Shown: positions 15,910-59,850, numbered from the stretch's first letter. The stretch is DNA of 64,000 bases from Flavobacteriales bacterium (GCA_031411095.1 JANOAK010000012.1:13288-77287), one strand, 5' to 3'. Numbers and translations are program-made. Notes: generated by a model not told the origin, from the letters alone.

Positions 15910-16048
15910 CCGTGCACCTCTCCGGGCGACGTGTGCGACATCCGTGACCAGACAAGCGGATGAGCATATCGGCACAAGCCGAATTGGGGGGATCCCAGCC
16001 GAGCTGGGCCCCAGTGTGACCGGGCAGGAGCGAACATACTGCAGGTAC

Positions 16049-28411: not shown

Positions 28412-28454
28412 GCATCCACGGGCCTGTTCCTCTTAGGACCCAAATAACGAACCG

Positions 28455-29405
28455 ATGAAACCGACCGCCAAGCGATGGAAAGGGATACTGCTCGGGCTTC
28501 TGCTCAGTGGCAGTGCGTTCGCGCAGCAGGATCCGCAGTTCTCGCAATACATGTTCAACCTGCTGGCCATCAATCCGGCTTATGCTGGCAGCGCGGAACG
28601 TGTAAGCCTGAAGGCCTTGAGCCGCCACCAGTGGGTGGGCTTCGAAGGTGCTCCTACAACGCAGACGCTCACAGCGCACAGCCCGTTCCTGATGGAAAGC
28701 CTCGGGTTGGGAGGGACCATCATGCGCGATGAGCATGGACCTGTTGTGCAGTACGGGTTCATGGTGGATGTGGCCTATCGCATGTTCCTGACACGGAACA
28801 CCAAGCTGTCGTTCGGCATCAAGGGTGGCATGAACCTGTTCCAGGGGAAGTTCGCTGACCTGAACCCCCTCCAGCAGGGTGATCAGGTGTTCCAGCAGAA
28901 CGTGCAGCAGAAGCTGGATCCACAATTCGGATTCGGTGTCATGTGGTATGGCGACCGTCACTATCTGGGTCTGAGCACACCGAAAATGTTGCGCACCAAG
29001 CTGTTCGAGGATCCAGCGCTCACCGATTCCATCATCGGCACGGTATGGCAGGCGGGGCAGCGGGCACACTGGTTCCTCACCGGCGGCTATGTCTTCAACA
29101 TGGGCATGTACAACAAGTTCAAGCCCAGCTTCCTGCTGAAAGCGGTGAACGGCGCTCCGATCAGCTTCGACCTCACCGCCAACTTCCTGTTCTATGAGAA
29201 GTTCTGGTTGGGGGCCATGTACCGTCATACTGACGCGGTGGGCCTCCTGGCGCAATACCACATCAGCAACGACCTGTCCGTCGGCTACGCCTACGATTAC
29301 CCGATCTCCAAGCTGAACAACTATACCGGCGGGTCGCATGAGTTCATGCTGGGCTTCGAGTTCGGCAACAAGTTGAAAGGCATTCGTTCACCGCGCTACT
29401 TCTGA
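28455..29405 (+). CDS. PorP/SprF family T9SS outer membrane beta-barrel
   Basis: QQDPQFSQYMFNLLAINPAYAG, RHQWVGFEGAPTTQ, WLGAMYR, GYAYDY, GSHEFMLG, C-terminal SPRYF. Confidence 0.95.
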   Translation: MKPTAKRWKGILLGLLLSGSAFAQQDPQFSQYMFNLLAINPAYAGSAERVSLKALSRHQWVGFEGAPTTQTLTAHSPFLMESLGLGGTIMRDEHGPVVQYGFMVDVAYRMFLTRNTKLSFGIKGGMNLFQGKFADLNPLQQGDQVFQQNVQQKLDPQFGFGVMWYGDRHYLGLSTPKMLRTKLFEDPALTDSIIGTVWQAGQRAHWFLTGGYVFNMGMYNKFKPSFLLKAVNGAPISFDLTANFLFYEKFWLGAMYRHTDAVGLLAQYHISNDLSVGYAYDYPISKLNNYTGGSHEFMLGFEFGNKLKGIRSPRYF

Positions 29406-29409
29406 TCAC

Positions 29410-31677
29410 ATGCATCCGTCCATCATGAAGCGGTCCATCTTCCACCAACAGTCCCTCACCCCCCTGCCCACCATCGGGGACCGGGCATGGGTGCAGCATG
29501 TCTTGCGCAGCGTCGGGGTCTGTGGACTGCTGATACTGGCCGTGTTGCAGCCCCATGCTGCCCAGGCGCAAAAGTTGAAAGAGCGTCTAGCCGAAGAGGC
29601 CGCCGCGGATTTCGATTACCCCAGGATGGCGGCCATCTATGAGGACATCACCACGAGCAAGAAGGGCACTGCGGATGACTATCGCCGGCTGGCCTTCGCG
29701 TACAAGCGCATGGGACAGCTGCTGAAGGCGGAGGCGGCATACAAGCAGATGGCGAACATGGGCCCGTTGAGCCCGCCCGACATGTTGGACTATGCCGATG
29801 TGCTTCGGGCGAACGGTCACTATGCCGAAGCCCTGCTGGTGTATGAGGCATATGCCGGATCGCATCCGGACGATGTGCGGGTGAAGGGCTATCTGGCACA
29901 AGGTGACTTCTTCATGCGGCTCAAGCGGGACAGTACCCGAAATGAGGTACGAACGGTGCCGATCAACAGCCCCCAGGCCGACCTGGGCATGACCGTGATG
30001 GATGACCTGCTGATCTTCAGCAGCGCGCGTGGCGAAGGCGTGGGCGGAAAGAACGAGTACAAATGGGACGACCAGCCCTTCCTGAACCTGTACACCGCCC
30101 TGCTCAAGGGGCGCACCGCCGCCGAGCCGATGGTCATGCGCAAGGACCTCAACAGCCGGTACCATGACGGTACGGCCTCGTATGATTCGCTGGCCCACCG
30201 GCTCTACTTCACCCGTGACAATGTGTTCTATGGCACCCTGCACAAGGCCAGCAACGGGGAACTGAAGTTGGGGATCTTCCATTCCGACATCACGGCCGGC
30301 GAGTTCAATCAACGCGAATGGGATGGCCTGGTGCCGTTCGAGCACAACGATCCGGAGTACAACGTTGGCCATCCAGCGATCAGCCCCGACGGCAAACGGC
30401 TGTTCTTCGCAAGCGATCGACCCGGAGGCCAGGGAGGGACCGATATCTGGTACAGCGATAACCTCGGAAATCGCTGGGGCGTACCGCAGAACATGGGAGC
30501 CAGGGTGAACACCCCGGGCAATGAGATGTTCCCGTACCTCAGCCAGGACAGCGTGCTCTATTTCACCAGCAACGCGCACCCCGGCCTGGGGGGCTATGAT
30601 ATCTTCCAATGCCGCCTAACGCCAAAAGGGCCGAGCTCCGTTATCAACATGGGTTATCCGGTCAACTCGCGATTCGATGAGCGGAACCTGATCATCCTGC
30701 AGGACGACAGTTCTGGCTTCTTCGTCAGCAACCGTCCAGGCGGCCAGGGCAGCGATGATATCTATGGCTGCACGGTGCATCCGCCCATGGAGCACATCGC
30801 GGGCCGTGTGGTCGATAGCCAGACAAGGGAAGGGCTTGATGGCGCGCTGCTCGATATCAAGGACGGTACAGGGCGCTACCTGGATGATGCGCGTATCAAT
30901 ATGATGGGTGATGGTCGGTTCGAGATCGACGCACCCTATCGTAACGCCTATGACGTGACCGCTACAAAGAGCGGGTACCTGCAGAACAGCGTTACGCTGA
31001 ACCCGGATACCGATGCGCTGGATGATGTGACCATCTCCTTGCAGAAGTACGAGTACGGGGCGGAAGGTGTCGTGATGCACGGCGAGACCCGCGCACCGCT
31101 CGCAGGCGCCAAAGTGATGTTGCTGGATGCGAGCGACAAGGTGGTGAATGAACTGGTCACCGGTGATGACGGGAAATATGCCTTCAGCCTTCAGCAGAAC
31201 ACCGACCATCGCCTGAAAGTGGAGAAGGAGGGCTTCTTCAAGCAGAGCGCTCGGATCAGCACGAAAGGCAAGACCGCCACGGTGATCCGTACGGACTTCA
31301 AGCTTTTCCCATTGGAAGTGGACCAGGTGGTACGCTTGGATAACATCTACTACGACCTGGCCAAGTGGAACATCCGCCCGGATGCAGCGCTGGAACTGGA
31401 TAAGCTGGTACAGACGCTCATTGATAACCCCACCGTGAAGATCGAGCTGAGCGCCCATACGGATTGCCGGGGTAAGGACTCGTACAACATGGACCTAAGT
31501 GCCAAGCGTGCGAAAAGCGCGGTGGATTATCTGATCAAACAGGGCATTGCCAAGGAGCGCCTTGTGAGCAAGGGCTACGGCGAGACGAAACCCATGGAGA
31601 CCTGCGAATGCAAGAAGTGCAACGATGAGGAACACCAGCGCAACCGCAGAACGGAATTCAAGGTGCTGAGCAAGTAG
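29410..31677 (+). CDS. PorE-like OmpA family protein (TPR, PD40 propeller, carboxypeptidase-regulatory-like, OmpA-C)
   Basis: TPR helices, HPAISPDGKRLFFASDRPGGQGGTDIW, NIYYDLAKWNI, IELSAHTDCRG..YNMDLSAKRA, NRRTEF. Start is 29410 or 29425. Confidence 0.92.
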   Translation: MHPSIMKRSIFHQQSLTPLPTIGDRAWVQHVLRSVGVCGLLILAVLQPHAAQAQKLKERLAEEAAADFDYPRMAAIYEDITTSKKGTADDYRRLAFAYKRMGQLLKAEAAYKQMANMGPLSPPDMLDYADVLRANGHYAEALLVYEAYAGSHPDDVRVKGYLAQGDFFMRLKRDSTRNEVRTVPINSPQADLGMTVMDDLLIFSSARGEGVGGKNEYKWDDQPFLNLYTALLKGRTAAEPMVMRKDLNSRYHDGTASYDSLAHRLYFTRDNVFYGTLHKASNGELKLGIFHSDITAGEFNQREWDGLVPFEHNDPEYNVGHPAISPDGKRLFFASDRPGGQGGTDIWYSDNLGNRWGVPQNMGARVNTPGNEMFPYLSQDSVLYFTSNAHPGLGGYDIFQCRLTPKGPSSVINMGYPVNSRFDERNLIILQDDSSGFFVSNRPGGQGSDDIYGCTVHPPMEHIAGRVVDSQTREGLDGALLDIKDGTGRYLDDARINMMGDGRFEIDAPYRNAYDVTATKSGYLQNSVTLNPDTDALDDVTISLQKYEYGAEGVVMHGETRAPLAGAKVMLLDASDKVVNELVTGDDGKYAFSLQQNTDHRLKVEKEGFFKQSARISTKGKTATVIRTDFKLFPLEVDQVVRLDNIYYDLAKWNIRPDAALELDKLVQTLIDNPTVKIELSAHTDCRGKDSYNMDLSAKRAKSAVDYLIKQGIAKERLVSKGYGETKPMETCECKKCNDEEHQRNRRTEFKVLSK

Positions 31678-31728
31678 GGTTGGGTTCCCCTGGGCCTATG
31701 GCAAGGGGTTGTTCAGCGAAAGGGAGCA

Positions 31729-31760
31729 CGCGGGCCGAGTGATCGGCCCGCGCGCTTTTC
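31729..31760 (+). terminator. Intrinsic terminator after adhesin-porP-porE-like
   Basis: 10-bp stem cgcgggccga/tcggcccgcg with loop gtga, followed by cgctttt. Confidence 0.65.
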
Positions 31761-32219
31761 CAGCCGGTCCGTTGCTTCCAAACAAGTGCCCAATGCGCCG
31801 TTCACCGTAACGTATGCATCCGCATCAGGTCATGTATGAGCGCTCACCGTTCGACGGACCTCCATGCCCACGACCTGTCCACATCGCCGGGGTTACTCAT
31901 CCTCGTAGAAAGCAGCGACGCACGTATGGCTAGAGGGTATCTCATGATCAGTTGCGCTCCGCATGGCCTTTGACGCCATTTCTTCAGCTGCAGAAGGCTT
32001 CCGATAGCTCAGGCTATTCACAGTTCCTTCGCCACACTCGCCGCCAGTTCCTCCTCGCTTACTACCAAGAACATTTCTGGGCTGCCCTTCAGGTGGATGA
32101 GCACCATGACACGTCGTACATCGTTGCGGAAAATGGTCGGTCTGCATCCCAGAATGACATGAAGCTGGCCATGTGCAGCATCGATCGATCGGCAACCCCG
32201 CATCTTTCCAACGCACGCC

Positions 32220-32257
32220 AAAAGGAAGGGGCCGTCTCTTTCGAGACGGCCCCTTCC
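32220..32257 (-). terminator. Intrinsic terminator for the TBDR-DUF5689-OB operon
   Basis: Perfect 15-bp stem ggaaggggccgtctc/gagacggccccttcc, a GAAA loop on the minus strand, then TTTT. Confidence 0.85.
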
Positions 32258-32273
32258 CGGGGATCTCAGGGGA

Positions 32274-33611
32274 TCAGCGGATCACCTGCAGGCTCATGGC
32301 CTTTGCGGAGGCGTCGCTGCGCAGTGTCACGGTGTACAGGCCTGAAGTGAGGCTACCCACTTCAATGCTCGTGCGGGTGCTGCTCAGGTTGCCGTTCAGG
32401 ACAACGCGGCCGCTCAGGTCGCTCACCGTGTACAACACATTGCCGAGCGTAACACCCAGGTCGATGGTCAGCTGTTCAGAAGCGGGGTTCGGGTACAGGC
32501 TGGATGCTACGAGCACACCCGCTTCGCCGATGCCCGTGGCCACCACTACATCGTTCTCGTCGCGGGGTTCGATCTTCCATGCGCCGTTGGCATAATGCAC
32601 GATGCCAGTGACATCGTAGTCGGTACCGACGGTGGGGTTGTACAGGTACATCAGGTCGTCCACCGGCAGGCTTCCGGGGGCCTGGTTGATCGTCCATTCA
32701 CCGAAACCATCGGGCAGGCTGGTGCAGGTCGCGTTGGCGATCACCGCCAGCACACCTTCCCACTGTTCCTGCGTTGCGCCGTCGGTACCCAGCAATTGGG
32801 GTGCTGGCGTGGCGAACTGGCCGACCACGGTGAGGGAGGTAACGGCGGTCAATTCGGTCAGGCTGTTGAATTCCGTGACGGTGGCCTGGAGGACCACGCT
32901 GTCGCCGATCGCCACAACGCCCGTGGCATCAAAGCAATAGATGCCGCTCCATGGGCCGCTGCCGCTCTGGATGAAATAGGAGTTCTGTCCGATCGTGTCC
33001 ACACCGGTGACGATACCGCCGGTCAATACCACCTGGCCGTTCAACGGTGAGTTGCCGTTCACGTCGGTGGTATTCTGGATAGCGTAGATGCTGGCGTTCA
33101 CGGGTCCACCACCCGAGGTGATGTTGACATCGTCCACCACGAGATGCTCGGGGCCGGAGGTGCTGCGCACGGAAAGGATGAACTCGGCGCCGGTCGTATC
33201 GTTCTGGCACGTGATGCTCTGCGTCACCTGTGTCCATGTGTTGCCGGTGGATACCGCATATGCATTGTAGGGCGCATAACCGAAACCGGTGGTGCGACCA
33301 TCGAACAGGCCCGTACGGATCTCACCGGTGCCACGTACCCAGAAGCTGATCTGGTAGATCGCGGCTTCCGTCACCGTCACCGGTTGCGTTGTGAAACGTT
33401 TGTGGCTGGTAGTGGTGTTCGTGAGGCGAACTGCATAGGTGCCACCATGTACGTTGGTGCTCACCTGTTCAACGCTGTCCGCGCTGATGGACGATTTAAC
33501 GCCCATCCAGTCGGATGGCACCGTATCGGTCCAGTTCTCGAAGCCGCTGCTGAATTGCGCGCTGGCGATCGTGGCGACCGATGCGGCAAGAATGAGTAGA
33601 GTTGATCTCAT
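32274..33611 (-). CDS. T9SS type A CTD protein with a CBM-like beta-sandwich and nuclease-associated OB-fold domains, no catalytic domain seen
   Basis: Signal peptide, FENW..VHGGTYAV..ISFWVRG..VVDDV, SIYAIQ..SPLNGQVV..GIVTG..YFIQ..SGIY (OB-fold as in ExeM/YhcR-type nucleases), and LYPNPASEQL CTD. Confidence 0.8.
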   Translation of the reverse strand: MRSTLLILAASVATIASAQFSSGFENWTDTVPSDWMGVKSSISADSVEQVSTNVHGGTYAVRLTNTTTSHKRFTTQPVTVTEAAIYQISFWVRGTGEIRTGLFDGRTTGFGYAPYNAYAVSTGNTWTQVTQSITCQNDTTGAEFILSVRSTSGPEHLVVDDVNITSGGGPVNASIYAIQNTTDVNGNSPLNGQVVLTGGIVTGVDTIGQNSYFIQSGSGPWSGIYCFDATGVVAIGDSVVLQATVTEFNSLTELTAVTSLTVVGQFATPAPQLLGTDGATQEQWEGVLAVIANATCTSLPDGFGEWTINQAPGSLPVDDLMYLYNPTVGTDYDVTGIVHYANGAWKIEPRDENDVVVATGIGEAGVLVASSLYPNPASEQLTIDLGVTLGNVLYTVSDLSGRVVLNGNLSSTRTSIEVGSLTSGLYTVTLRSDASAKAMSLQVIR

Positions 33612-33653
33612 GTGTTCTGGGTATTGAGGTTGGGTGCTGCGCTTGTCAGCGGG

Positions 33654-34904
33654 TTATTGGGCGAGGATCTTGATGTCGTCCAATTCCCAGGTCTTTCCAT
33701 CCGCACTGGTGCCGGTGTACTTGAACCCGATGTGGACGTTACTGGAAATGTAGGACGAGAGGGACAATGCACCCGAGGATGTCCATGTCCACGCGCCGGG
33801 GCTCACAGCTGCGGGGAGCGATGTCCATGTGGCACTGGCGGGAGCACCACTGGTGTAATCCGTGCTGACGAACACCTGCAGATTTGCGCCGGTGTAGTTG
33901 CAACCGGTGATGAACGACAGGATGGGCGCGGTGGTGGTGGTAAGGTTGATCGAGGGCGAAATGAGCCAGGTCTCGCAGGGAATGTTCGCACCGTTCACAT
34001 AGTTCTTGATCTGGCCGTAGGGCGTTCCATCGTTCGAACCGACCGTGTTGGTGGTCCAGAGGACCGTCGTATCGGACCACTGCGTCCATCCACCGGATGT
34101 CGCGCTACCGTCGTTGAAGTTCTTGCCGAAGAAGGGCAGTTCCTGACCGGGGCAACGCGGGCCCGTCATATTCACCTCGGCGAGGCTGCGGTTGTACAGT
34201 TGCAAGGTGGAGCCGAAGACACCGACCACTGCCACCATGCTGCCTTTGCCCTGCGGAAGTGGCTGGGCGGCGTAATTGGAATAATCACTGCTGCGCACCA
34301 GGACCTGGTTGCCGTTGCAGTCCTCAATGGTGCGGTTGGTGGAGGAGCTTCCTCCGGCTGTGGCCCAGGTACTGCCTGCAGCATCCGCTGCGATGAACTC
34401 CACGCTGTCCAAGCGGATCAGGGTGCTCTGCATATCGGGCGTGATCTCGTCGATGGTCACCACGCGCGGCTGCACATAGCGCAGGGTGGCCTGCTTCACC
34501 ACGTTATTGTCCACGCTTACACTATCCAGCTGCATCAAGTTCTGGTATGGACGACAGACCGTACCGGGCAGGTAGATGCGGATGCTGTCACCCACGTAGA
34601 GCCCGCCGCTGTTGAGCAGGCGCAGGCAGATGCCGCCGGTGGCATCCTGCACATAGATGTTCTTGTAGAAGTTGCCGTCCAACTCATCGTTGATCACGGT
34701 GGCGTACACGCTGGCATCGCCGGTGAAGCGAACATCACCGAGGGTGTCGTACATGTTCTTCAGGTCCTGGATCGTGTAGATCTGTCCTGTCGGAATGGTA
34801 CGGGTGGTCGGCGTGTCGAGGTCCTTTTCACAACCAGCCAGCACGGCCAGCAGGGGAAGGAACAGCAGAGTGCGAAAGGCGGAAGGGAAGGTCATGCGGT
34901 GCAT
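33654..34904 (-). CDS. DUF5689-type OB-fold lipoprotein with a C-terminal beta-sandwich
   Basis: Lipobox LAGC, VINDELDGNFYKNIYVQDATGG, VGDSIRI, LIRLDSVEF, WLISPSINL, HIGFKYT..WELDDI. Confidence 0.8.
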   Translation of the reverse strand: MHRMTFPSAFRTLLFLPLLAVLAGCEKDLDTPTTRTIPTGQIYTIQDLKNMYDTLGDVRFTGDASVYATVINDELDGNFYKNIYVQDATGGICLRLLNSGGLYVGDSIRIYLPGTVCRPYQNLMQLDSVSVDNNVVKQATLRYVQPRVVTIDEITPDMQSTLIRLDSVEFIAADAAGSTWATAGGSSSTNRTIEDCNGNQVLVRSSDYSNYAAQPLPQGKGSMVAVVGVFGSTLQLYNRSLAEVNMTGPRCPGQELPFFGKNFNDGSATSGGWTQWSDTTVLWTTNTVGSNDGTPYGQIKNYVNGANIPCETWLISPSINLTTTTAPILSFITGCNYTGANLQVFVSTDYTSGAPASATWTSLPAAVSPGAWTWTSSGALSLSSYISSNVHIGFKYTGTSADGKTWELDDIKILAQ

Positions 34905-34918
34905 GGGTTGTTTCGTGA

Positions 34919-37504
34919 TCAGAAGCTGTAGGTGAGCATGAGGAAGTACGTACGGCCGAACATGTAGCCGTATTTGGGAGGGAACTTGTCCGGATCCAGT
35001 CGCTCGTAGCGCAATTGCTCGAAGCCGCCGGTCCTCAGCTCCTGGTTGTCCAGCAGGTTGCTGATGCTGGCATTGAGGCCCAGACGGTATTTGCGCTTGA
35101 ACAGCCAGCTCTTGTAGAAGAACACATCGATGGTGTACCCATCATCCAGCTTGGTCTGGTCCAGCAGCTGGTCCCACTGCGGATCGTCCGTCACCAGATT
35201 GGTAAGCGCCTCGGCGGTGCGGCGGTCCGGATTAGGGTCCAGGTAGATGTTGCCGAAGTAGTTCACGTTGGCTCCCACGCGCCAGAACTTCGGGGAGTTG
35301 TATTGGGCGCCCACGGAGGCTGCGGTCTGTGGCATTCCGCCCACGCGATAGTTCTTCCAATAGACCGTTCGGCCCGTAGCGATCGCCGTATCCAGGTTGT
35401 CCCGGGTGATGGTGGCCGTAGGGCGGGAGCTATAGCGATACTGTCCTTGGGCGAGGACGGCGGTGGCGGTAACGGTGGGTGAAAGCTTGGCTTCCAGCCC
35501 GAGCTCCAGGCCCATATGCGTCTGATCCACGCCGGTCATGGCATAGTTCACCAAGGTGAGGAACTGTTCGTTGAAGTAGCTGCGGCTCCACAGCTGGTTG
35601 GAGATCTGGGCATAGTAGAGCGTGGCGCGGCCCTTCAACCTCGGCATGCGTGCCAGATAGCTGATGTCGCCCGAGAGCACGCTCTCGTTAGTGAGCCCGG
35701 TAATGGTCGTCTCCCGTGTGCGCGGGCTGATGAAGGCTGTGCGCGGGGTGGGGGGGCGGGTGATGAACGCTGCGTTGCCGGTGATGTAGTTGCGGCCATC
35801 GACCTTGTACACCGCACCGGCCTTCACCCCGATGTTCGAGAATGTCTGCTTGGGGCTCTCGCCCTTGGAGGTCTCGGGGAACAACCCGTTGGTGAATCGA
35901 CTTTCGCGCCAGAAGCTCGTCTGCGAAAGGCTCAGGCCGGCATAGCCTTCCACGCGCTGCCATTTCTTTTCCACCTGCCCGAACGCGTTGATCAGCTGGG
36001 TGTGGATGTCGTAATCGTATCCGAAGGTGTCGCCTTCACGCACCACGTGGTTGGGGGTGTCCAGGTTCTGCTGTGAACCGTTCGGATCCTGGCTGTCCAG
36101 TTCCGCGAACTGGTTCAGGTCCACCCAGAACTCTCCGCCCAACAGGTCGTTCAACACCTTGTAGTTGTGCGTCCTCTGCTTGTTCCAGCTGGCTCCTGCG
36201 GTCAAGTGATAGCCCGCTTGCATCTCCCGGCTCCACACCGTGTTCAACGCGATACGCGTGGGGTCGGTGCGCTGATCCTCCACGATGTATTTGCTGCGAA
36301 GACCTGTGACGTTGTTCCCGCTGATGCCTTCTGCATCAAGTACGGTGTAGAGGTTCTTGCCATTGGCGAAGTACAACTGGTCCCAGTCGATCTGTTGGGT
36401 GTTGACGTTGTTCTGCCAGGCGCTGGTGAGCTCAGCAGCATATCCCGTGTTCTCCTGATCGTAATAGCTGGGGAAATAGCGGTAATAGTCGGGGCGCGGA
36501 TCCCGTGCGTCGAACCAGTTGAGGTTCGTGTTCCCATCGCGGCCGAAGGAGTACAGCGCGGTTGTCGTCCATTCGGTGCTGTCATCCGGTGTGAAGATGT
36601 GTGTGAGCAACAGGATGGGCTTGTGGTCAAAGCTCACGCGGCTGTTGCGTTTTTCGCCGGCCTGATAGCCCCACGAGGGATTGTAATAGTTGTCGCCGGT
36701 CAGGTCGTAGGCCTCCTGGATCGCGAGCGTCTGGCGGCCTTGGCGCACGGGGGCCCCCAGCCCGGTGAAGGCGATGCTGTGGCGGGCGTTCAGCTTCTTC
36801 TCGGCGCTCACGAAATAGGCTCCCGCGTCGTAGAATGTCCCGGGCACGTACCCTTCATTGGCCCAACGGCGCGAGCCGCTGATGCTGAAGGCCCATCCAT
36901 TGGCCATCATGCCCGTGTTGTGGGTGCCCATCAAGCGGTGGGTGTAGGCCCGGTTGGTCAAGGCATAGGAAAAGCGTGTGCCGCGGCGCAACTCGCTGGC
37001 ACGCAGGGAGATCTCTGAATATCCGCCCACTCCCCCGAAGTTGTACCGCGAGGAGGTGACGCCCGTGCGTGTCTCCAGCCACCGGGTCACATCATTCAAC
37101 CCACCCCAGTTGCTGAAGGAGGCGAAGCCGCTCTCCAGATCGTTCATCAGCACCCCGTTCAGGCTGATCAGCGTGTTCTCGCCATCAAATCCACGAATGC
37201 GGAACCGGGCCGCTCCAAAGGTGAATCCGGCGGTGCTGTTGAAGATGTCCCGTGAACTTTGCAGCACCCCGCTCACATCCTGGCTGTTGAGCTCAGCATC
37301 CAGTTCGCTCGCGCTCACCGTGAACGCTGCCGAACGCTGGTCAGCGCTGGCCTGGGCCGTATCTGGCGCCACGGTCAGGGAGGTGTCCGTCTGGGCGACC
37401 ACCGTGCCAACGAACATGAAGGAAAGGAGCAGTCCGCTGCAACGACCTCCGATAAGAGGTGATCGAACAGGTGTTCCGGAGGGGCGAGGTGTAGCCAAGG
37501 GCAT
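34919..37504 (-). CDS. TonB-dependent receptor-like outer membrane beta-barrel (nuclease-locus type)
   Basis: Plug-like RFRIRGFDGEN..LNGVLMND..WGGLND, beta-strand periodicity, and C-terminal GRTYFLMLTYSF. The promoter at 37539-37546 supports a start at or below 37504. Confidence 0.85.
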   Translation of the reverse strand: MPLATPRPSGTPVRSPLIGGRCSGLLLSFMFVGTVVAQTDTSLTVAPDTAQASADQRSAAFTVSASELDAELNSQDVSGVLQSSRDIFNSTAGFTFGAARFRIRGFDGENTLISLNGVLMNDLESGFASFSNWGGLNDVTRWLETRTGVTSSRYNFGGVGGYSEISLRASELRRGTRFSYALTNRAYTHRLMGTHNTGMMANGWAFSISGSRRWANEGYVPGTFYDAGAYFVSAEKKLNARHSIAFTGLGAPVRQGRQTLAIQEAYDLTGDNYYNPSWGYQAGEKRNSRVSFDHKPILLLTHIFTPDDSTEWTTTALYSFGRDGNTNLNWFDARDPRPDYYRYFPSYYDQENTGYAAELTSAWQNNVNTQQIDWDQLYFANGKNLYTVLDAEGISGNNVTGLRSKYIVEDQRTDPTRIALNTVWSREMQAGYHLTAGASWNKQRTHNYKVLNDLLGGEFWVDLNQFAELDSQDPNGSQQNLDTPNHVVREGDTFGYDYDIHTQLINAFGQVEKKWQRVEGYAGLSLSQTSFWRESRFTNGLFPETSKGESPKQTFSNIGVKAGAVYKVDGRNYITGNAAFITRPPTPRTAFISPRTRETTITGLTNESVLSGDISYLARMPRLKGRATLYYAQISNQLWSRSYFNEQFLTLVNYAMTGVDQTHMGLELGLEAKLSPTVTATAVLAQGQYRYSSRPTATITRDNLDTAIATGRTVYWKNYRVGGMPQTAASVGAQYNSPKFWRVGANVNYFGNIYLDPNPDRRTAEALTNLVTDDPQWDQLLDQTKLDDGYTIDVFFYKSWLFKRKYRLGLNASISNLLDNQELRTGGFEQLRYERLDPDKFPPKYGYMFGRTYFLMLTYSF

Positions 37505-37538
37505 GGTCCGCAATGGGGATGGATCAACGAAAGGGCGC

Positions 37539-37546
37539 CAAAAGTA
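37539..37546 (-). promoter_or_regulatory. -7 promoter element TACTTTTG for the TBDR operon
   Basis: Exact TAnnTTTG on the minus strand, 34 nt before the ATG. Confidence 0.6.
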
Positions 37547-37666
37547 CACCCGAGCATGGCGTGTAATGGGCAAGCCCGAGTTATTTCTGTATGCTGTTCA
37601 TAAAGTCCTAAGGACCTGAAGGTTGAATTCCGTCGCCCAGGTCTGGCCATCCGGAACGGACCGCGA

Positions 37667-37674
37667 TACATTTG
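37667..37674 (+). promoter_or_regulatory. -7 promoter element TACATTTG for the second adhesin
   Basis: Exact consensus. It argues against the 37623 start. Confidence 0.55.
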
Positions 37675-37757
37675 TTAGCTTGGCCAAGGCCAAGGCGAAT
37701 CCACCGGATGTGATCGGAAAGGTAATAACACAATTGGGGTCCTTTGCGCAGTGGCGC

Positions 37758-40700
37758 ATGACCCGGCATGCCGTGTTGATCTGTGGCGTGAGCTTCCTGT
37801 TCACGACCGCACGGGCCGCGCACTATGCAGGTGGGAGTATCACCTATGAATGCATTGGACCCGACCAGTTCCTTATCAATCTGGACCTCTTCCTTGATTG
37901 CGCGGGTGTGCCAAGTGTTGCCCAAACGCTGACGTTCTCCAGCACGTGTGGCACCACGTTCACGGTGCCGAGCATCCCGCCACCGGTGCCTACGGAGGTG
38001 AGCCAGCTCTGCGCGGCCGCCATGTCCAACAGTACATGCAACGGGGGTACGTTGCCGGGTATCGAGTATTACCACTTTGAAACGATCGTCACCCTGCCGC
38101 CCTGTGACCACTGGACGGTGAGCTGGAACATCTGCTGTCGGGCCGCAACGGTGGATCTCGTCGGTGTGCCAGGGATGTACATCGAGGCGGAGATCTACAA
38201 CGCCACCGATGCGTGCAACAATTCCCCGGAGTTCACCGACCAATCGATCCCCTACGTCTGCCTCAACCAACCGGTGTACTACAATTTCGGGGTGAACGAA
38301 CCGGATGGGGATGAATTCACCTATGCGCTCATCAACGCCCGGTACTTCGCGGGCACACCACAGGACGTGAACTACCAGCCGGGTTTCTCCGGTGGAGCGC
38401 CGGTCCCCGGTATCACCCTCGATCCGGTGTCAGGGCAGATCGTATTCACCCCAACGGTCAGCGGGAACTATGTGGTGGCGGTGGAGGTGGAGGAGTACGA
38501 CGTCAACGGCAACTTGATCGGGACCGTTATGCGGGATATCATGTTCGTGGTGCTGCCCTGCACGGGAAGCGTGCCCATCAGCCAGGGTGCGGTGAATAAT
38601 ACAGGCGGGCTGATCACCGGGACCAACAGCATCGAAGTGTGCGAGGGTGAAGCGTTCTGTGTGGACATGGAGTTCACCGATGCGGATCCCGGAACCGTGC
38701 TACAGGTGGTATCCACGGCCACGGCCATGCTTCCCGGTTCCACGTTCACGGTGATCGGGACCAACCCGGCCATCGGACGCATCTGCTGGACAGGCGACCT
38801 GAACTACTCCCCCATCAATGTGCTGGTGCAGGCGGACGATGGCTCATGTCCGGTGGAGAACACGGCCACTGTGGCGTTGAACATCACCACGGTCAGCGGC
38901 GGAGGGCCGTTGCCGTCCCCTGGGACCAATGGGTCCGTTCAGGTCTGTCCCAATTCCCTGGCCTTCATGCTTATCGATGAGCTGGGCGGAACACCCGATC
39001 CCAGTGGGTTCTGGACAGGCCCTTCAGGATCCCCTCATAATGCACAGTTCGATCCCATTACCGATCCGGCAGGGGTCTACACCTACACCGTGGGCAACTC
39101 CTGCGCGAGCGCCACCTCCACCGTTGCGGTGAGCTACGTGAACGTGCCCAACCCGGGAACCGATGGGGCGCTGAGCCTTTGTTCCAATGTCGTTCCGGTG
39201 AACCTGCTCACCGGCCTTGGGGGAACACCTTCTGCCGGGGGCACGTGGACCGCGCCGGGCGGTGGTGCGTTCGGGGGCAGTTACGATCCGGCCGTTCATG
39301 GCCCAGGCATTTACATGTATTCGGTCCCGGCGCTCTCGGGTTGTCCGGGATCGAGCGCAACGGTGACCGTAACGGAGACCCCCGCCCCGAATGCGGGCAT
39401 CAACGGGCTGATGAGCGTGTGCTCCGATCAGGGGGTCACATCCATGTTCGGGTACCTCGGAGGCACCCCGGCAGTGGGTGGAACATGGACCGCCCCGGGA
39501 GGTGGTGCGTTCAGCGGAAGCTTCAACCCGGCTGTGCATGCGGCCGGTGTTTATACCTACAGCGTGACCGGCACGCCCCCGTGCGTCAACGCACAGGCCA
39601 CGGTAACCGTTACCATTAATCCAGTACCGAACGCTGGCGCGAACGGCTCGCGCACCGTGTGCTCATCCGCCGCGCCGGCCAACCTGTTCACCAGCCTGGG
39701 CGGCACTCCCCAAGCGGGTGGGTCATGGACCGACCCCGTGGGCATGCCCCACAGCAACATGTACGACCCGGCTGTCGATGGTCCGGGTGTGTATGTGTAC
39801 ACCGTGACCGGCGTTGCACCTTGCGCGAATGCTGCCGCTACGGTGACGGTCACGGAGACACCCGCACCTAACGCAGGGGCGGATGCGATCTTCTCCATTT
39901 GCAGCAACGGGCCGGTCACGAACCTGTATACTCTGTTGGGCGGTGGTGCCCAGGCCGGTGGCACATGGACCAATCCGGGCGGCGCCGCGTTCAGCGGATC
40001 CTACGACCCCACATTACATGGCCCCGGCATCTATACCTACACCCTCGCTCCCAGCGCTCCCTGTCCGGGAGATCAGGCCACGGTGACAGTAACGGAGCCT
40101 ATGGCGCCCAACGCAGGGGTGGATGCGGTCTATTCCATCTGTTCATCCAATGCGGCCACCAACCTGCTCTCCTTGCTCACTGGCGCGCAGGCCGGGGGTA
40201 CGTGGACCGCACCGGGCGGGGGCGCCTTCTTCGGTACGTATGACCCTGCCGTGCACGGCAGCGGCGTATTCACCTATACGGTGAACGGCGCTGCACCCTG
40301 TGTTGCCGATCAGGCCACGGTGACGGTCACGGAGAACGCTGCTCCGAACGCCGGCACCGATGGTGCCCTCGCGCTCTGTTCAACTTCGTCCGCCACAGGG
40401 CTTCTGGCCTCGCTGGTAGGTGCGCAGGCCGGCGGCATGTGGAGCGCTCCGGGTGGAGGGGCCTTCAGCGGTACGTACGATCCCGCCGTGCACATGAGCG
40501 GCGTTTACACATACACGGTGCCGGGCATTTCACCCTGCGCATCCGATCAGGCCACGGTCACGGTGACGGAGAACGCAGCACCGAACGCGGGAACGGATGG
40601 CACGCTTGCGCTATGTTCCAGCTCCGCGGCCACGGGGCTCTTTGCTTCGCTCACGGGTGCCCAGGCGGGTGGCACGTGGACCGCTCCAGGTGGAGGTGCC

Positions 40701-53827: not shown

Positions 53828-53937
53828 GGTTCCCGAAAGGAGCGCGAAACTACCGGGGCGATGTTAGGTGGAGGTTAAGCCGCTTTCCCTTGACAGGAGC
53901 GGCATGCAGGCCGGCGAAGGGCTACTTTCGCCCGCTG

Positions 53938-58614: not shown

Positions 58615-59850
58615 TCACTTAACGATCTCATCCCACAACTCGATCTCGTTCTCGTTGTTCACGCTGATCCGCGGAATGTCGTTGTAGATCGTGACCTTTC
58701 CCGTGATGCAGACCTTCTTGTTCATCAGGTAGGTCACCGGATCGTAGTGGAAGTTGGGACCGTTGTAGTCCCAGACGGTGGCATAGAACTCCTGGTTCGG
58801 ATGGCTACGGTCCAAGTTCAGGTAAACGGCATTGGCCTTGGTGGTGCGACGGGTGCTGATGACGGTACCGCAGATGGTGGCCGTTTTGCCGATCTGGTAT
58901 TTCGCCTGCGAGGTGTTGAAGCGTCCGCCTGGCAATGGCGCGGGAATGGGTGCCACGTCCGCTGCGAGCGGATCGCCTTCGGCCTGCCAGGCCTTGGTGT
59001 CGTTCTGTGCTTCGATGCGGTTCTCGAGCGTATCGTCGAGCGACGGGAACAGATCAAGCCCGGTGAGCTTTTCCACGCTGTCGATGGACACGGCGTAGCC
59101 CATCATGTTGCGATCGGCCGGACCGTTGTTCATCACGAAGGCGATGCCTTTTTTCTCGGGTCCATCGATGTCGATGAAGGCCTTGAAGCAGTAGGTGGGA
59201 ATGCTCACCTGCTCCTTGGCGGTAGGGGTGCTCAATGTCGGCAGTCCTTCGGCGAGGACCGGACCGGTGACGATGAACACGCGCTCCTTGGCGTAATGCA
59301 CATAGCGGCGGCCCCAGTCCTCGAGATCGGCCCAGCTCTCGCGGTTCATCTCCGCTTTCTGTGGCGTGATGTTGCTGTAGAGATAGGTCGCTTCCAACGC
59401 CTTCTGGCTCCACCGCATATCGGCGCTGGGCACCATGTGGCCCCGGTCGTAGCCGCTGTTCCAAAACTCGTCGAACAGGTCCGTTCCGCCCTTCACCAGG
59501 GGATCGGGTTTGAAGGAATCGATGCGGGCCAGGTTGCCTTTCATGATGTCGGGCATCACGATGTGCGCGGTCCACTTCGGACTATGGAAATGATCGTTCC
59601 ACACCAACGCGTGTCCCGGGTGCATCACCACCTCATCGCCCGGCGCCAATGCGGGAAGTCCGTATGCTTTCAGGTCGCGTTGCATGATGGCCAGCTTCAG
59701 GTCCTCGATGGGCCCCAGGAGCACACTCTGCTGCGATTCCAACTGGTCGTACTGGGCCTGTAGCTTCTGCAGTTGTTGTTCCTGCACTTGCGCGTGAACG
59801 GCGGTGCCGACACAAAGGACGGCCAGGATGAATAGGGATCGTAAGGTCAT
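58615..59850 (-). CDS. Secreted DNA/RNA non-specific endonuclease (NucA/EndA, beta-beta-alpha-metal) with C-terminal OB-like domain
   Basis: Signal peptide ending VHA-Q, YDRGHMVPSAD, YSNITPQ, NRESWADLE, VTGPV, IPTYCFK, EKLTGLDLFP. Start 59850 overlaps the upstream stop (ATGA). Confidence 0.9.
   Translation of the reverse strand: MTLRSLFILAVLCVGTAVHAQVQEQQLQKLQAQYDQLESQQSVLLGPIEDLKLAIMQRDLKAYGLPALAPGDEVVMHPGHALVWNDHFHSPKWTAHIVMPDIMKGNLARIDSFKPDPLVKGGTDLFDEFWNSGYDRGHMVPSADMRWSQKALEATYLYSNITPQKAEMNRESWADLEDWGRRYVHYAKERVFIVTGPVLAEGLPTLSTPTAKEQVSIPTYCFKAFIDIDGPEKKGIAFVMNNGPADRNMMGYAVSIDSVEKLTGLDLFPSLDDTLENRIEAQNDTKAWQAEGDPLAADVAPIPAPLPGGRFNTSQAKYQIGKTATICGTVISTRRTTKANAVYLNLDRSHPNQEFYATVWDYNGPNFHYDPVTYLMNKKVCITGKVTIYNDIPRISVNNENEIELWDEIVK

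What the first reader, a model, noticed from the sequence alone, without database searches (positions are those of the whole stretch)
32274..37546. Candidate extracellular-DNA uptake operon with OB-fold binders but no nuclease
Seen: one promoter (37539), a TonB-type receptor, a DUF5689 OB-fold lipoprotein and a T9SS-secreted CBM+OB+OB protein, with 14- and 42-nt gaps and a strong terminator. No catalytic nuclease motif is visible in any of them. Known or recalled (verify): this receptor type with DUF5689 normally clusters with endonucleases in Bacteroidota and has been linked to DNA utilisation in gut Bacteroidales. Inference: a variant where a T9SS-exported, non-catalytic nucleic-acid-binding protein captures substrate and the DRGH nuclease at 58615-59850, which also ends in an OB-like domain, works in trans.
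Basis: partly seen in the sequence, partly recalled or inferred. Interest (0 to 1): 0.65.

Follow-up and report, generated by a model that had tools for sequence, protein, structure and literature searches.

The report
Minimal DNA-uptake operon lacking nuclease genes
A three-gene operon in an uncultured freshwater-sediment Flavobacteriales bacterium encodes an outer-membrane transporter, a surface lipoprotein with a DNA-binding-type fold and a secreted relative of that lipoprotein; it belongs to a recently described family of DNA-uptake systems, but this lineage lacks the nuclease genes that normally sit next to such operons.

Summary
Three minus-strand genes (34919-37504, 33654-34904, 32274-33611) are separated by 14 and 42 nt, preceded by one Bacteroidota -7 box and followed by a strong hairpin. 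They encode a divergent TonB-dependent transporter (TBDT), a DUF5689 + choice-of-anchor-J lipoprotein, and a T9SS-exported jelly-roll + tandem-OB protein. No nuclease domain is detectable in any of them.

The transporter/DUF5689 pair is the published DdbC/DdbD type. That type is needed for DNA catabolism in Bacteroides and for natural transformation in Riemerella.

New here: the T9SS protein is a domain-permuted paralogue of the DUF5689 lipoprotein. Its first OB domain matches the DNA-binding heads of the ExeM/NucH and SpnA nucleases. It is a core third gene in 49 of 53 related species loci.

Most of those loci do carry nucleases. 45 of 53 have an Exo_endo_phos_3 gene, 17 have a T9SS-secreted EEP nuclease, and 13 have a periplasmic 5'-nucleotidase. 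The window belongs to a monophyletic subclade without any of these.

So the binder does not replace a nuclease, and the proposed partnership with the DRGH nuclease 21 kb away has no synteny support.

One caveat: the secreted tandem-OB region has almost no Lys/Arg, which is odd for a DNA binder. Verdict: a new variant of a known kind, of moderate interest.

The parts
37539..37546 (-). Candidate Bacteroidota -7 promoter box TACTTTTG (TAnnTTTG), 35 nt upstream of the ATG at 37504
   Evidence: Sequence. Pattern scan: it is the only match on this strand between 32274 and 37600. The window-wide count (9) is not above chance (7.0 +/- 2.4), so the call rests on position only.
34919..37504 (-). Divergent TonB-dependent transporter (861 aa). 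It has a signal peptide ending ...VVA/Q, a candidate TonB box AFTVSA, a Plug domain, about 700 aa of putative barrel, and a C-terminal ...LTYSF.
   Evidence: Translation. Pfam Plug E 1.3e-6. Plug is found in 36 of 37 family members, with no CarboxypepD_reg or Pfam barrel hit. The family profile aligns to a canonical TBDT over the plug and first strands (32 bits) and weakly in the barrel. No PDB sequence match.
33654..34904 (-). Lipoprotein (416 aa): lipobox LAGC with Cys25, a DUF5689 tandem-OB domain (aa ~40-246) and a choice-of-anchor-J/DUF5017-type jelly roll (aa ~260-413). It is the DdbD / RA0C_RS04920 counterpart.
   Evidence: Pfam DUF5689 E 1.5e-42. NCBIfam choice_anch_J E 1.6e-17 and a partial M949_1556 lipoprotein match of 147.7 bits. 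Cys25 is invariant in 40 homologues. AF2 pLDDT 90. Foldseek hits Teb1 AB tandem OB (3u58, E 4e-5) and CBM/Kgp-adhesin jelly rolls.
32274..33611 (-). T9SS type-A cargo protein (445 aa): signal peptide, jelly roll, tandem OB and a C-terminal sorting domain. No catalytic domain is detected.
33108..33554 (-). N-terminal CBM_4_9-like jelly-roll domain of the T9SS protein (aa 20-168)
   Evidence: Pfam CBM_4_9 E 1.4e-8. Foldseek CBM16/CBM4/CBM22 with TM to target ~0.6. In some orthologues this domain scores as choice-of-anchor J (L033).
32526..33107 (-). Tandem OB module of the T9SS protein (aa 169-362). It is DUF5689-like and ExeM/NucH-N-terminal-like, and is strongly acidic and nearly free of Lys/Arg.
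   Evidence: All 22 of 22 family members hit the N-terminal part of NCBIfam ExeM_NucH_DNase (best E 3.9e-16). 4 of 22 hit Pfam DUF5689 (E 2.9e-7). The profile hits SpnA OB3 (PDB 9sf8 residues 4-82, E 7e-6). hhalign to the DUF5689 lipoprotein family gives E 7.6e-5. Many orthologues score on both HMMs. Charge analysis.
32277..32498 (-). T9SS type-A C-terminal sorting domain (aa 372-445)
   Evidence: Por_Secre_tail E 7.4e-12. TIGR04183 E 1.3e-7. PDB 5jvk C-terminal domain (CTD) match.
32220..32258 (-). Intrinsic-terminator-like hairpin: GGGAAGGGGCCGTCTC-GAAA-GAGACGGCCCCTTCC, then TTTT
   Evidence: Sequence. RNA fold dG -40.6 kcal/mol, z -5.6, and 0 of 200 shuffles fold as well. The consensus scanner missed it because the T run has only 4 T.
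58615..59850 (-). Unlinked DRGH Endonuclease_NS (411 aa) with an SPI-type signal peptide. It is a possible periplasmic nuclease acting downstream of uptake. The association with the operon is not supported by synteny.
   Evidence: Pfam PF01223 E 3.2e-39. Translation with SGYDRGH. No homologue lies within 10 kb of the triad in 84 related loci.

Best explanation
This is a minimal, enzyme-less version of a Flavobacteriales-type extracellular nucleic-acid capture and uptake locus. It is homologous to the DdbC/DdbD (Bacteroides) and RA0C_RS04915/04920 (Riemerella) systems.

Proposed mechanism:
1. One promoter drives the three genes.
2. The 861-aa TonB-dependent transporter sits in the outer membrane.
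3. The lipoprotein (tandem-OB DUF5689 plus jelly roll) is its surface substrate-binding partner.
4. The third protein is a domain-permuted, T9SS-exported paralogue of that lipoprotein (jelly roll + tandem OB + CTD). It acts as an accessory surface or secreted binding protein, comparable to SusE/F or DdbE, that gathers nucleic acid, or nucleic acid in its cation- or matrix-bound state, and passes it to the transporter.
5. Degradation happens with enzymes encoded elsewhere in the genome. In relatives these enzymes sit beside the triad: a signal-peptide Exo_endo_phos_3 enzyme, a T9SS-secreted EEP nuclease, and a Tat/lipoprotein 5'-nucleotidase pair. That context points to nutrient (P/N/C) scavenging.

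Shown: the anatomy, the homologies and the synteny statistics. Inferred: ligand, direction of transfer, surface exposure and physiological role.
For: Pair identity:
- DUF5689 E 1.5e-42, followed by choice-of-anchor J. This is the architecture reported for RA0C_RS04920 (PMC8459023).
- A Plug-domain transporter lies directly upstream.

Fold:
- The model of the lipoprotein matches tandem-OB Teb1 AB.
- Conserved basic residues K81, R95, R109, K137, R204 and R239.

Third protein:
- High-confidence model with two OB-like barrels.
- Every family member hits the ExeM/NucH N-terminal region.
- The profile hits SpnA OB3, and OB2/OB3 of SpnA are reported as essential for DNA binding.
- The ExeM two-OB region is essential for activity (PMC6085458).
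- Homology to DUF5689.

Synteny. Among 53 species loci with at least 2.5 kb of flank on both sides:
- the triad is complete in 49;
- Exo_endo_phos_3 is adjacent in 45 (42 within 300 nt);
- a T9SS-CTD EEP nuclease is present in 17;
- a Metallophos + 5_nucleotid_C pair is present in 13.

The enzyme-less clade is monophyletic and spans about 47-82 % protein identity, so the triad persists without adjacent enzymes.
Against: - No experiment has been done on any member of this clade.
- No sequence comparison with DdbC/DdbD or the Riemerella proteins themselves was possible.
- The lipoprotein scores far below the cut-off of the Riemerella-named NCBIfam family (147.7 vs 475 bits).
- The transporter barrel is not recognised by Pfam or PDB sequence searches. 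It also lacks the CarboxypepD_reg domain reported for RA0C_RS04915.
- The secreted tandem-OB region has net charge -17 and a 195-aa stretch with no Lys/Arg. The family mean K+R is 1.9 %, with only one invariant basic residue. This is unusual for a DNA binder. It is partly a general property of this organism's T9SS cargo.
- No nuclease, nucleotidase or competence gene is linked in this window.
- No expression data exist.
Confidence: 0.6

Rival explanations
1. The triad is an outer-membrane DNA import apparatus for natural transformation, as in Riemerella anatipestifer. On this view the absence of adjacent nucleases in this lineage reflects selection for importing long, intact DNA that is then passed to ComEA/ComEC.
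For: RA0C_RS04915 (TBDT-like) and RA0C_RS04920 (DUF5689 + DUF5017 / choice-of-anchor J) are essential for transformation in a Flavobacteriales species (PMC8459023). The window lipoprotein has that same domain architecture. The nuclease-less state is stable across a clade.
Against: Related loci are linked to a secreted EEP nuclease (17 of 53) and a periplasmic 5'-nucleotidase pair (13 of 53), which fits catabolism better. The Riemerella locus itself has an adjacent ddbB-like nuclease (PMC12478041), so nuclease absence does not point specifically to competence. No ComEC, DprA, ComF or ComEA-like gene is in the 64-kb window. The two roles are not mutually exclusive.
Confidence: 0.15
2. The ligand is not nucleic acid. 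The jelly-roll (CBM_4_9 / choice-of-anchor J) domains bind a glycan or another matrix polymer, and the acidic OB modules bind a cationic ligand such as a metal, a polyamine or a basic protein. On this view the operon is a PUL-like system for that substrate.
For: The N-terminal domain matches CBM_4_9, and Foldseek finds CBM16/CBM4/CBM22. The lipoprotein C-terminal domain matches carbohydrate-binding and adhesin jelly rolls. The OB region of the secreted protein is nearly free of Lys/Arg, with pI about 4.05.
Against: There is no SusD, glycoside hydrolase or lyase in or beside the operon in the window, nor in the gene tables of loci L001-L004. The recurrent neighbours identified in related loci are EEP-family enzymes and 5'-nucleotidases. 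Experimental data for the homologous pair all concern DNA (PMC12478041, PMC8459023). K/R depletion is shared by all T9SS cargo in this window, so it need not reflect the ligand.
Confidence: 0.12
3. The T9SS protein is itself a nuclease, with a catalytic site that current profile libraries do not recognise. Its conserved acidic residues could bind catalytic metal ions. The operon would then be self-sufficient.
For: The OB region has invariant acidic or polar residues (D237, E247, E282, E285, D354, Q179, Q215). JGI annotators named two relatives 'predicted extracellular nuclease' and 'DNA/RNA endonuclease YhcR'.
Against: Those names come from the OB-region match only. No EEP, SNase, NUC, HNH or Endonuclease_NS domain is detected. 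The model contains only a jelly roll, two small beta barrels and the CTD. No His is invariant. The conserved residues are shared with the non-catalytic OB heads of ExeM/NucH/SpnA. Most relatives keep dedicated nucleases next door.
Confidence: 0.05

Closest known systems
DdbC/DdbD of the ddbABCDEF DNA-utilisation locus of Bacteroides thetaiotaomicron (Sharan et al., PNAS 2025, PMC12478041)
   Same: A TonB-dependent transporter gene is followed directly by a DUF5689 lipoprotein with a tandem-OB/HIN-like predicted fold. A further predicted extracellular non-catalytic protein (DdbE) occupies the same position as the third gene here. The logic is PUL-like.
   Different: No nuclease gene is in or beside the window operon, whereas ddb has three. 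The third protein is exported by T9SS through a type-A CTD instead of being a lipoprotein. Homology of the third protein to DdbE was not testable. Sequence identity to DdbC/D is unknown. The host is an environmental Flavobacteriales bacterium, not a gut Bacteroidales.
RA0C_RS04915 / RA0C_RS04920 natural-transformation proteins of Riemerella anatipestifer (PMC8459023)
   Same: The order is Flavobacteriales. The lipoprotein partner has DUF5689 plus a DUF5017 / choice-of-anchor-J domain, exactly as here. The genes are adjacent, with the transporter first.
   Different: RA0C_RS04915 carries a CarboxypepD_reg domain that is absent in all 37 members of this clade. The Riemerella locus has a ddbB-like nuclease neighbour and no reported T9SS tandem-OB gene. 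The window lipoprotein scores 147.7 bits against the Riemerella-named NCBIfam family, whose cut-off is 475.
ExeM/NucH extracellular nucleases and Streptococcus pyogenes SpnA (PMC6085458, PMC13601614; PDB 9sf8)
   Same: The tandem-OB module of the T9SS protein is homologous to the OB head that precedes the EEP catalytic domain in these enzymes. That head is needed for DNA binding and activity.
   Different: The EEP catalytic domain and the lamin-tail domain are absent. The module is fused instead to a CBM-like jelly roll and a T9SS CTD. It is far more acidic and nearly free of Lys/Arg.
SusE/SusF-type surface glycan-binding proteins of polysaccharide utilisation loci
   Same: A non-catalytic, multi-domain, cell-surface or secreted binding protein is encoded directly after the transporter and its partner lipoprotein. 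Its presumed role is substrate capture.
   Different: There is no sequence or fold relationship. The export route differs (T9SS versus lipoprotein). The presumed ligand is nucleic acid. There is no SusC/SusD pair.

Membership tests
Ddb / RA0C-type DNA-uptake locus (TBDT + DUF5689 partner) | A DUF5689-domain protein is encoded directly next to the transporter gene | tested here: met
   PF18942 E 1.5e-42 with a full-length profile match. The gene starts 14 nt after the transporter stop.
Ddb / RA0C-type DNA-uptake locus (TBDT + DUF5689 partner) | The partner is a lipoprotein (SPII) with a lipoprotein export signal C(x/xx)(D/E)(D/E) | tested here: inconclusive
   Lipobox LAGC with Cys25, invariant in 40 homologues. 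The residues after Cys are EKDLD, which is acidic but not a strict match to the published pattern. No signal-peptide predictor was available.
Ddb / RA0C-type DNA-uptake locus (TBDT + DUF5689 partner) | The DUF5689 domain has a tandem OB / HIN-like fold resembling DNA binders | tested here: met
   AF2 model with pLDDT 90. Foldseek finds Teb1 AB tandem OB, 3u58, E 4e-5. The top hits are dominated by the C-terminal jelly roll. p202 itself was not among the top 50.
Ddb / RA0C-type DNA-uptake locus (TBDT + DUF5689 partner) | The transporter is a TonB-dependent outer-membrane protein (plug plus barrel) | tested here: inconclusive
   The Plug domain passes the Pfam cut-off (29.3 vs 23.9 bits) and is found in 36 of 37 relatives. 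The family profile aligns to a canonical TBDT over the plug and first strands, and weakly in the barrel. The protein ends in a C-terminal Phe. No Pfam barrel or PDB sequence hit was found.
Ddb / RA0C-type DNA-uptake locus (TBDT + DUF5689 partner) | N-terminal carboxypeptidase-regulatory-like domain on the transporter (as annotated for RA0C_RS04915) | tested here: not met
   0 of 37 family members match PF13620/PF13715. Only about 20 residues separate the signal peptide from the candidate TonB box.
Ddb / RA0C-type DNA-uptake locus (TBDT + DUF5689 partner) | Secreted or periplasmic nuclease genes in the same locus | tested here: not met
   None is in the operon or its flanks. No Exo_endo_phos_3, T9SS-EEP or 5'-nucleotidase occurs anywhere in the 64-kb window. 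The feature is met in 45 of 53 related loci.
Ddb / RA0C-type DNA-uptake locus (TBDT + DUF5689 partner) | Direct sequence homology to DdbC/DdbD or RA0C_RS04915/04920 | not testable with these tools
   Those sequences could not be retrieved. The indirect evidence is a partial match to NCBIfam NF052645, the 'M949_1556 family lipoprotein' (M949 is recalled from memory as a Riemerella locus-tag prefix). It gives E 4.6e-43 at 147.7 bits, below the 475-bit cut-off.
Ddb / RA0C-type DNA-uptake locus (TBDT + DUF5689 partner) | A DNA-depletion or transformation phenotype depends on the genes | not testable with these tools
   The organism is uncultured, from freshwater sediment metagenomes, and no RNA runs are available.
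ExeM/NucH family extracellular endonuclease | N-terminal YhcR-like tandem OB region | tested here: met
   NF033681 positions 3-109 match aa 199-292 (E 3.2e-7). All 22 of 22 family members match, best E 3.9e-16. SpnA OB3 is hit at E 7e-6.
ExeM/NucH family extracellular endonuclease | C-terminal endonuclease/exonuclease/phosphatase catalytic domain | tested here: not met
   Only the first ~110 of 546 profile positions match, at 29.6 bits against a 300-bit cut-off. There is no EEP Pfam hit. The model has no such domain. The protein is therefore not a member.
T9SS type-A cargo | N-terminal signal peptide plus C-terminal type-A sorting domain, in an organism with T9SS | tested here: met
   PF18962 E 7.4e-12 and TIGR04183 E 1.3e-7. 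The signal peptide is MRSTLLILAASVATIASA/Q. A PorP/SprF gene and three other CTD proteins lie in the window.
SusC/SusD polysaccharide utilisation locus | SusC-type transporter paired with a SusD-family lipoprotein and glycan-active enzymes | tested here: not met
   There are no SusC or SusD NCBIfam/Pfam hits. There are no glycoside hydrolases in the operon or in the gene tables of related loci L001-L004.

The most novel reading that the evidence does not exclude
The T9SS-exported, Lys/Arg-free tandem-OB protein could be a diffusible or surface-tethered 'nucleophore'. This would be a hemophore-like shuttle that captures cation-coated or protein-coated extracellular DNA without cutting it, and delivers it to the DUF5689-capped transporter. 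A whole clade of Flavobacteriales could then import DNA across the outer membrane with no dedicated extracellular nuclease. A variant of this reading is that its DNA-like negative surface strips basic proteins off matrix DNA.
Probability: 0.15. Interest if true: 0.7.

Novelty: new variant of a known kind. Interest (0 to 1): 0.45.

Why it matters
Extracellular DNA is a major phosphorus and nitrogen pool in sediments, sludge and biofilms. How Bacteroidota move it across the outer membrane was described only in 2021-2025, for one pathogen and for gut Bacteroides.

This locus and its about 80 analysed relatives extend that system to environmental Flavobacteriales (Crocinitomicaceae, Vicingaceae, Parvicellaceae and uncultured families). 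The survey shows a T9SS-dependent layout: a conserved secreted paralogue of the DUF5689 binder as a third core component, plus modular accessory enzymes (a T9SS EEP nuclease, an Exo_endo_phos_3 enzyme with an N-terminal signal peptide, and a periplasmic 5'-nucleotidase).

The nuclease-less clade offers a natural test of whether binding and transport can be uncoupled from local degradation. That test bears on the open question of whether these transporters carry long DNA (transformation) or only fragments (nutrition). Two cultured carriers of the full locus make the question experimentally tractable.

Tried and rejected
- **Foldseek on the full models.** For both proteins the results were dominated by the jelly-roll domains.
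- **PDB sequence searches.** Two transporter profiles gave only spurious hits to designed repeat proteins. The single lipoprotein sequence gave nothing.
- **Remnant search.** tblastn of the accessory enzymes against the whole window found nothing better than E 0.26. The 600-nt spacer after the operon has no such remnant.
- **Endonuclease_NS linkage.** There are no homologues within 10 kb of the triad in 84 loci. The partnership was therefore rejected as a conserved feature. Linkage at 21 kb could not be tested.
- **C-terminal domain of the DRGH nuclease.** No PDB sequence hit, so the 'OB-like' claim stays unverified.
- **Expression evidence.** Only DNA metagenome runs hold the sequence, and no RNA runs were found.
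- **Sigma-70 promoter scan.** It is irrelevant for Bacteroidota and found nothing at the operon start.
- **M949_1556 literature.** The papers found describe an antigenicity and virulence phenotype in Riemerella. I could not confirm that M949_1556 is the orthologue of RA0C_RS04920.
- **Glycan PUL reading.** Rejected for lack of SusD or CAZymes, and because of the nuclease/nucleotidase neighbourhoods.
- **Unused searches.** The last homologue search and the representative-library search were left unused, because their top lists would have been filled by close relatives and would not have changed the verdict.


Full report
**1. What is in the sequence**

Three ORFs lie head to tail on the minus strand:
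- 34919-37573 as listed from a TTG. The first ATG, at 37504, gives an 861-aa protein with a signal peptide ending VVA/Q and a C-terminal ...LTYSF.
- 33654-34904 (416 aa).
- 32274-33611 (445 aa).

The intergenic gaps are 14 and 42 nt.

The motif TACTTTTG at 37539-37546(-) fits the Bacteroidota -7 consensus TAnnTTTG and lies 35 nt before the ATG. The window holds 9 such motifs against 7.0 +/- 2.4 expected. The motif is therefore not significant by count. It is, however, the only one on that strand along the operon. A second motif at 37667-37674(+) faces the divergently transcribed giant gene.

A 16-bp GC-rich hairpin followed by TTTT starts about 15 nt after the last stop codon. Its dG is -40.6 kcal/mol with z -5.6.

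**2. The three proteins**

*Protein 1 (transporter).* It has a Plug domain above the Pfam cut-off. The same holds for 36 of 37 relatives. None shows a Pfam barrel or a CarboxypepD_reg domain. The family profile aligns to a canonical TonB-dependent receptor found on two related contigs. The alignment covers the plug and first strands at 32 bits, and a barrel segment weakly. PDB sequence searches find nothing meaningful. I read it as a divergent TonB-dependent transporter, with AFTVSA as a candidate TonB box (inference from the sequence).

*Protein 2 (lipoprotein).* It has a lipobox (LAGC; Cys25 is invariant) and a full-length DUF5689 match at E 1.5e-42. It also has a C-terminal choice-of-anchor-J domain, which several homologues score as DUF5017 (PF16409). 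Its AF2 model (pLDDT 90) matches jelly-roll CBM and Kgp-adhesin domains, and matches the tandem OB folds of Teb1 AB for the N-terminal half.

*Protein 3 (T9SS cargo).* It has a signal peptide, a CBM_4_9-like jelly roll, and a T9SS type-A sorting domain. Its AF2 model (pLDDT 89) places two five-stranded beta domains, preceded by a short helix, between the jelly roll and the CTD. A sub-alignment of that middle region (A4) gave these results:
- All 22 members match the first ~110 positions of NCBIfam ExeM/NucH extracellular endonuclease, best E 3.9e-16.
- 4 of 22 match Pfam DUF5689, E 2.9e-7.
- The profile hits residues 4-82 of PDB 9sf8 at E 7e-6.

9sf8 is Streptococcus pyogenes SpnA resolved from OB3 onward, and OB2/OB3 are reported as essential for DNA binding and cleavage (PMC13601614). 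In Shewanella ExeM the equivalent two-OB region is essential for activity (PMC6085458).

hhalign links aa 196-357 of protein 3 to aa 65-246 of the DUF5689 lipoprotein family at E 7.6e-5. In many related loci the third gene scores on both HMMs, for example L078 with A1 266 bits and A2 211 bits. One such variant has a choice-of-anchor-J N-terminal domain (L033).

Protein 3 is therefore a domain-permuted, T9SS-exported paralogue of the DUF5689 lipoprotein. None of the three proteins shows a nuclease catalytic domain.

**3. What is known about the pair**

Two papers hold the term DUF5689.

In Riemerella anatipestifer, transposon and deletion mutants of RA0C_RS04915 and RA0C_RS04920 lose natural transformation (PMC8459023). 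RA0C_RS04915 is an outer-membrane protein with a CarboxypepD_reg domain. RA0C_RS04920 carries DUF5689 + DUF5017 and is annotated choice-of-anchor J.

In Bacteroides thetaiotaomicron, the ddbABCDEF locus is required for depletion of exogenous DNA and its conversion to uracil and xanthine. It comprises three nucleases, the transporter DdbC, the DUF5689 protein DdbD, and an extracellular protein of unknown function, DdbE. [quoted passage not shown]

**4. Related loci**

The T9SS protein has more than 200 homologues of about 445 aa. All named ones come from uncultured Flavobacteriales. The triad is conserved on four contigs with gene calls.

A scan of one genome per species with the lipoprotein alignment found 436 species with a relative. 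The best 80 loci were fetched. They include Crocinitomicaceae, Vicingaceae, Parvicellaceae, many unclassified Flavobacteriales, and two cultured strains: Crocinitomix algicola and Putridiphycobacter roseus.

HMMs built from my alignments were run over six-frame ORFs of all loci. Of 53 species loci with at least 2.5 kb on both sides:

| Feature | Loci (of 53) |
|---|---|
| Complete order transporter > DUF5689 lipoprotein (1-3 copies) > T9SS tandem-OB protein (1-2 copies) | 49 |
| ~350-aa Exo_endo_phos_3 gene (PF19580, E about 1e-115 to 1e-132) beside the triad | 45 |
| ...of which within 300 nt, divergent upstream or convergent downstream | 42 |
| ~405-aa EEP protein with a T9SS CTD and a partial MnuA-nuclease match | 17 |
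| Metallophos + 5_nucleotid_C pair (UshA-like) | 13 |
| None of these enzymes | 8 |

In the 5'-nucleotidase pair, a twin-arginine motif is visible on the first protein and a lipobox on the second. Most of the six Exo_endo_phos_3 proteins examined start with an ordinary signal peptide.

This context strongly supports a nucleic-acid substrate and a catabolic role for the family.

**5. Where the window stands**

The window has none of these enzymes anywhere in its 64 kb, by HMM or by tblastn (best E 0.26).

On a neighbour-joining tree of the transporters, the window groups with L022/L023, L029, L005 and L002. All of these that have adequate flanks lack the enzymes. A second enzyme-less group (L020, L012, L017) and L034 lie elsewhere.

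The nuclease-less layout is therefore an inherited trait of a clade whose members are about 47-82 % identical at protein level. It has arisen at least three times.

In L001/L009, transposase fragments and a ParE gene separate the triad from its Exo_endo_phos_3 gene. This suggests how the linkage gets broken.

**6. The proposed in-trans nuclease**

The gene at 58615-59850(-) is a genuine DRGH Endonuclease_NS with an SPI-type signal peptide.

No homologue lies within 10 kb of the triad in any of 84 loci. It is 21 kb away here, separated by unrelated housekeeping genes. Its C-terminal domain gave no PDB sequence match.

It may well digest imported or external nucleic acid, but nothing ties it specifically to this operon.

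**7. An unexplained property**

The tandem-OB region of the secreted protein has net charge -17 and pI 4.05. A 195-aa stretch contains no Lys or Arg. Across 45 homologues, K+R averages 1.9 % and only R350 is an invariant basic residue.

By contrast, the lipoprotein's OB region keeps 7.3 % K+R, with six invariant basic residues.

This is unusual for a DNA binder. It lowers my confidence that protein 3 binds naked DNA directly. Cation-bridged binding, base stacking, or a different ligand (DNA-associated cations or proteins, matrix polymers) remain possible.

Part of the effect is a class property. All four T9SS-CTD proteins in the window have 0.8-3.6 % K+R, against 8-14 % for the cytoplasmic proteins.

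**8. Most likely mechanism**

The T9SS exports protein 3, which is either released or tethered at the surface. Protein 3 and the lipoprotein gather extracellular nucleic acid. The lipoprotein caps the transporter, and TonB-energised transport brings fragments into the periplasm.

There, nucleases and nucleotidases encoded elsewhere release nucleosides and phosphate. Alternatively, DNA is handed to the competence machinery.

The homologies and synteny are shown. Binding, surface exposure, transport and physiological role are inferred. I put 0.6 on this reading.

Rivals:
- A dedicated transformation role: 0.15. This is not exclusive of the main reading.
- A non-nucleic-acid ligand: 0.12.
- A cryptic catalytic activity of protein 3: 0.05.

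**9. Comparison, novelty and verdict**

The pair is a member of the DdbCD / RA0C_RS04915-20 kind by domain content and gene order, with three reservations:
- The CarboxypepD_reg domain is absent.
- Locus-encoded nucleases are absent here.
- Direct sequence comparison with the characterised proteins could not be made.

Protein 3 is not an ExeM/NucH nuclease, because the catalytic domain is tested and absent. It does share their DNA-binding head.

I found no paper describing a T9SS-exported DUF5689-like tandem-OB protein as a core component, the T9SS/EEP/5'-nucleotidase layout in environmental Flavobacteriales, or the nuclease-less clade.

I rate this a new variant of a known kind, with interest 0.45. 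It is solidly interpretable and not surprising in principle. It does offer a concrete handle on whether these transporters need local nucleases, and on what the odd acidic OB protein does.

Noticed in passing
window 5050-6924(-), 15944-28411(+), 32274-33611(-), 37623-45170(+): The four genes in this window read as T9SS cargo (5050-6924 and 32274-33611 have Pfam CTD hits; the two giant repeat proteins are inferred from synteny) are strongly depleted in Lys+Arg (0.8-3.6 %, with 195-aa stretches containing none) and highly acidic. Cytoplasmic proteins of the same window have 8-14 % K+R. This looks like a class-wide compositional bias of secreted proteins in this organism.
   Followed up: partly
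window 15944-31677(+) and 37623-45170(+): Two giant repeat proteins (4155 and 2515 aa) flank the operon. The first is followed by a PorP/SprF gene (28455-29405) and a TPR/PD40/CarboxypepD_reg/OmpA protein (29410-31677). The same block lies next to the triad in loci L002/L003, where the giant protein carries a CHU_C domain, so this is a syntenic T9SS type-B cargo cluster.
   Followed up: partly
window 37667-37674(+): A second TAnnTTTG box (TACATTTG) faces the divergently transcribed 2515-aa gene and lies inside the ORF as listed from TTG 37623. The true start of that gene is probably further downstream, and the 37504-37700 region is a divergent promoter region.
   Followed up: no
window 31678-32273, especially 32018-32221(-): The ~600-nt spacer downstream of the operon has no convincing gene. 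A 67-aa ORF ends ...VLIHLKGSPEMFLVVSEEELAASVAKEL and may be an antitoxin-like remnant. In L001/L009 the equivalent position holds transposase fragments, an HTH gene and a ParE toxin.
   Followed up: no
window 52139-54972: A Na+/Pi cotransporter with a PhoU domain (52139-53827, -) sits beside a histidine kinase (53890-54972, +), about 4-6 kb from the Endonuclease_NS gene. This is a possible phosphate-acquisition context for that nuclease. It was not examined further.
   Followed up: no
L033 11236-12894; L075 5085-7387; L031, L038, L056, L057, L066, L076, L080, L082: The core genes vary in related loci. The third gene may carry a choice-of-anchor-J N-terminal domain plus a cupredoxin-like (plastocyanin/pseudoazurin) insert (L033). 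It may also be enlarged: the L075 ORF of at least 767 aa, cut by the contig end, has three ExeM-N-like stretches. The DUF5689 lipoprotein gene is duplicated in tandem in the Crocinitomicaceae-type loci that also carry the 5'-nucleotidase pair.
   Followed up: partly
L068, L069, L073, L077 (and L060): A small clade of loci has the transporter, the DUF5689 lipoprotein and the adjacent Exo_endo_phos_3 gene but no T9SS tandem-OB third gene, despite 3.5-10 kb of downstream sequence. This is the reverse of the window's situation and a natural comparison group.
   Followed up: no
L022 10193-12691: In the closest species-level relative (82 % identity), both the lipoprotein gene and the third gene appear split into two ORFs each. 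This could be assembly indels or real pseudogenisation. It was not resolved.
   Followed up: no
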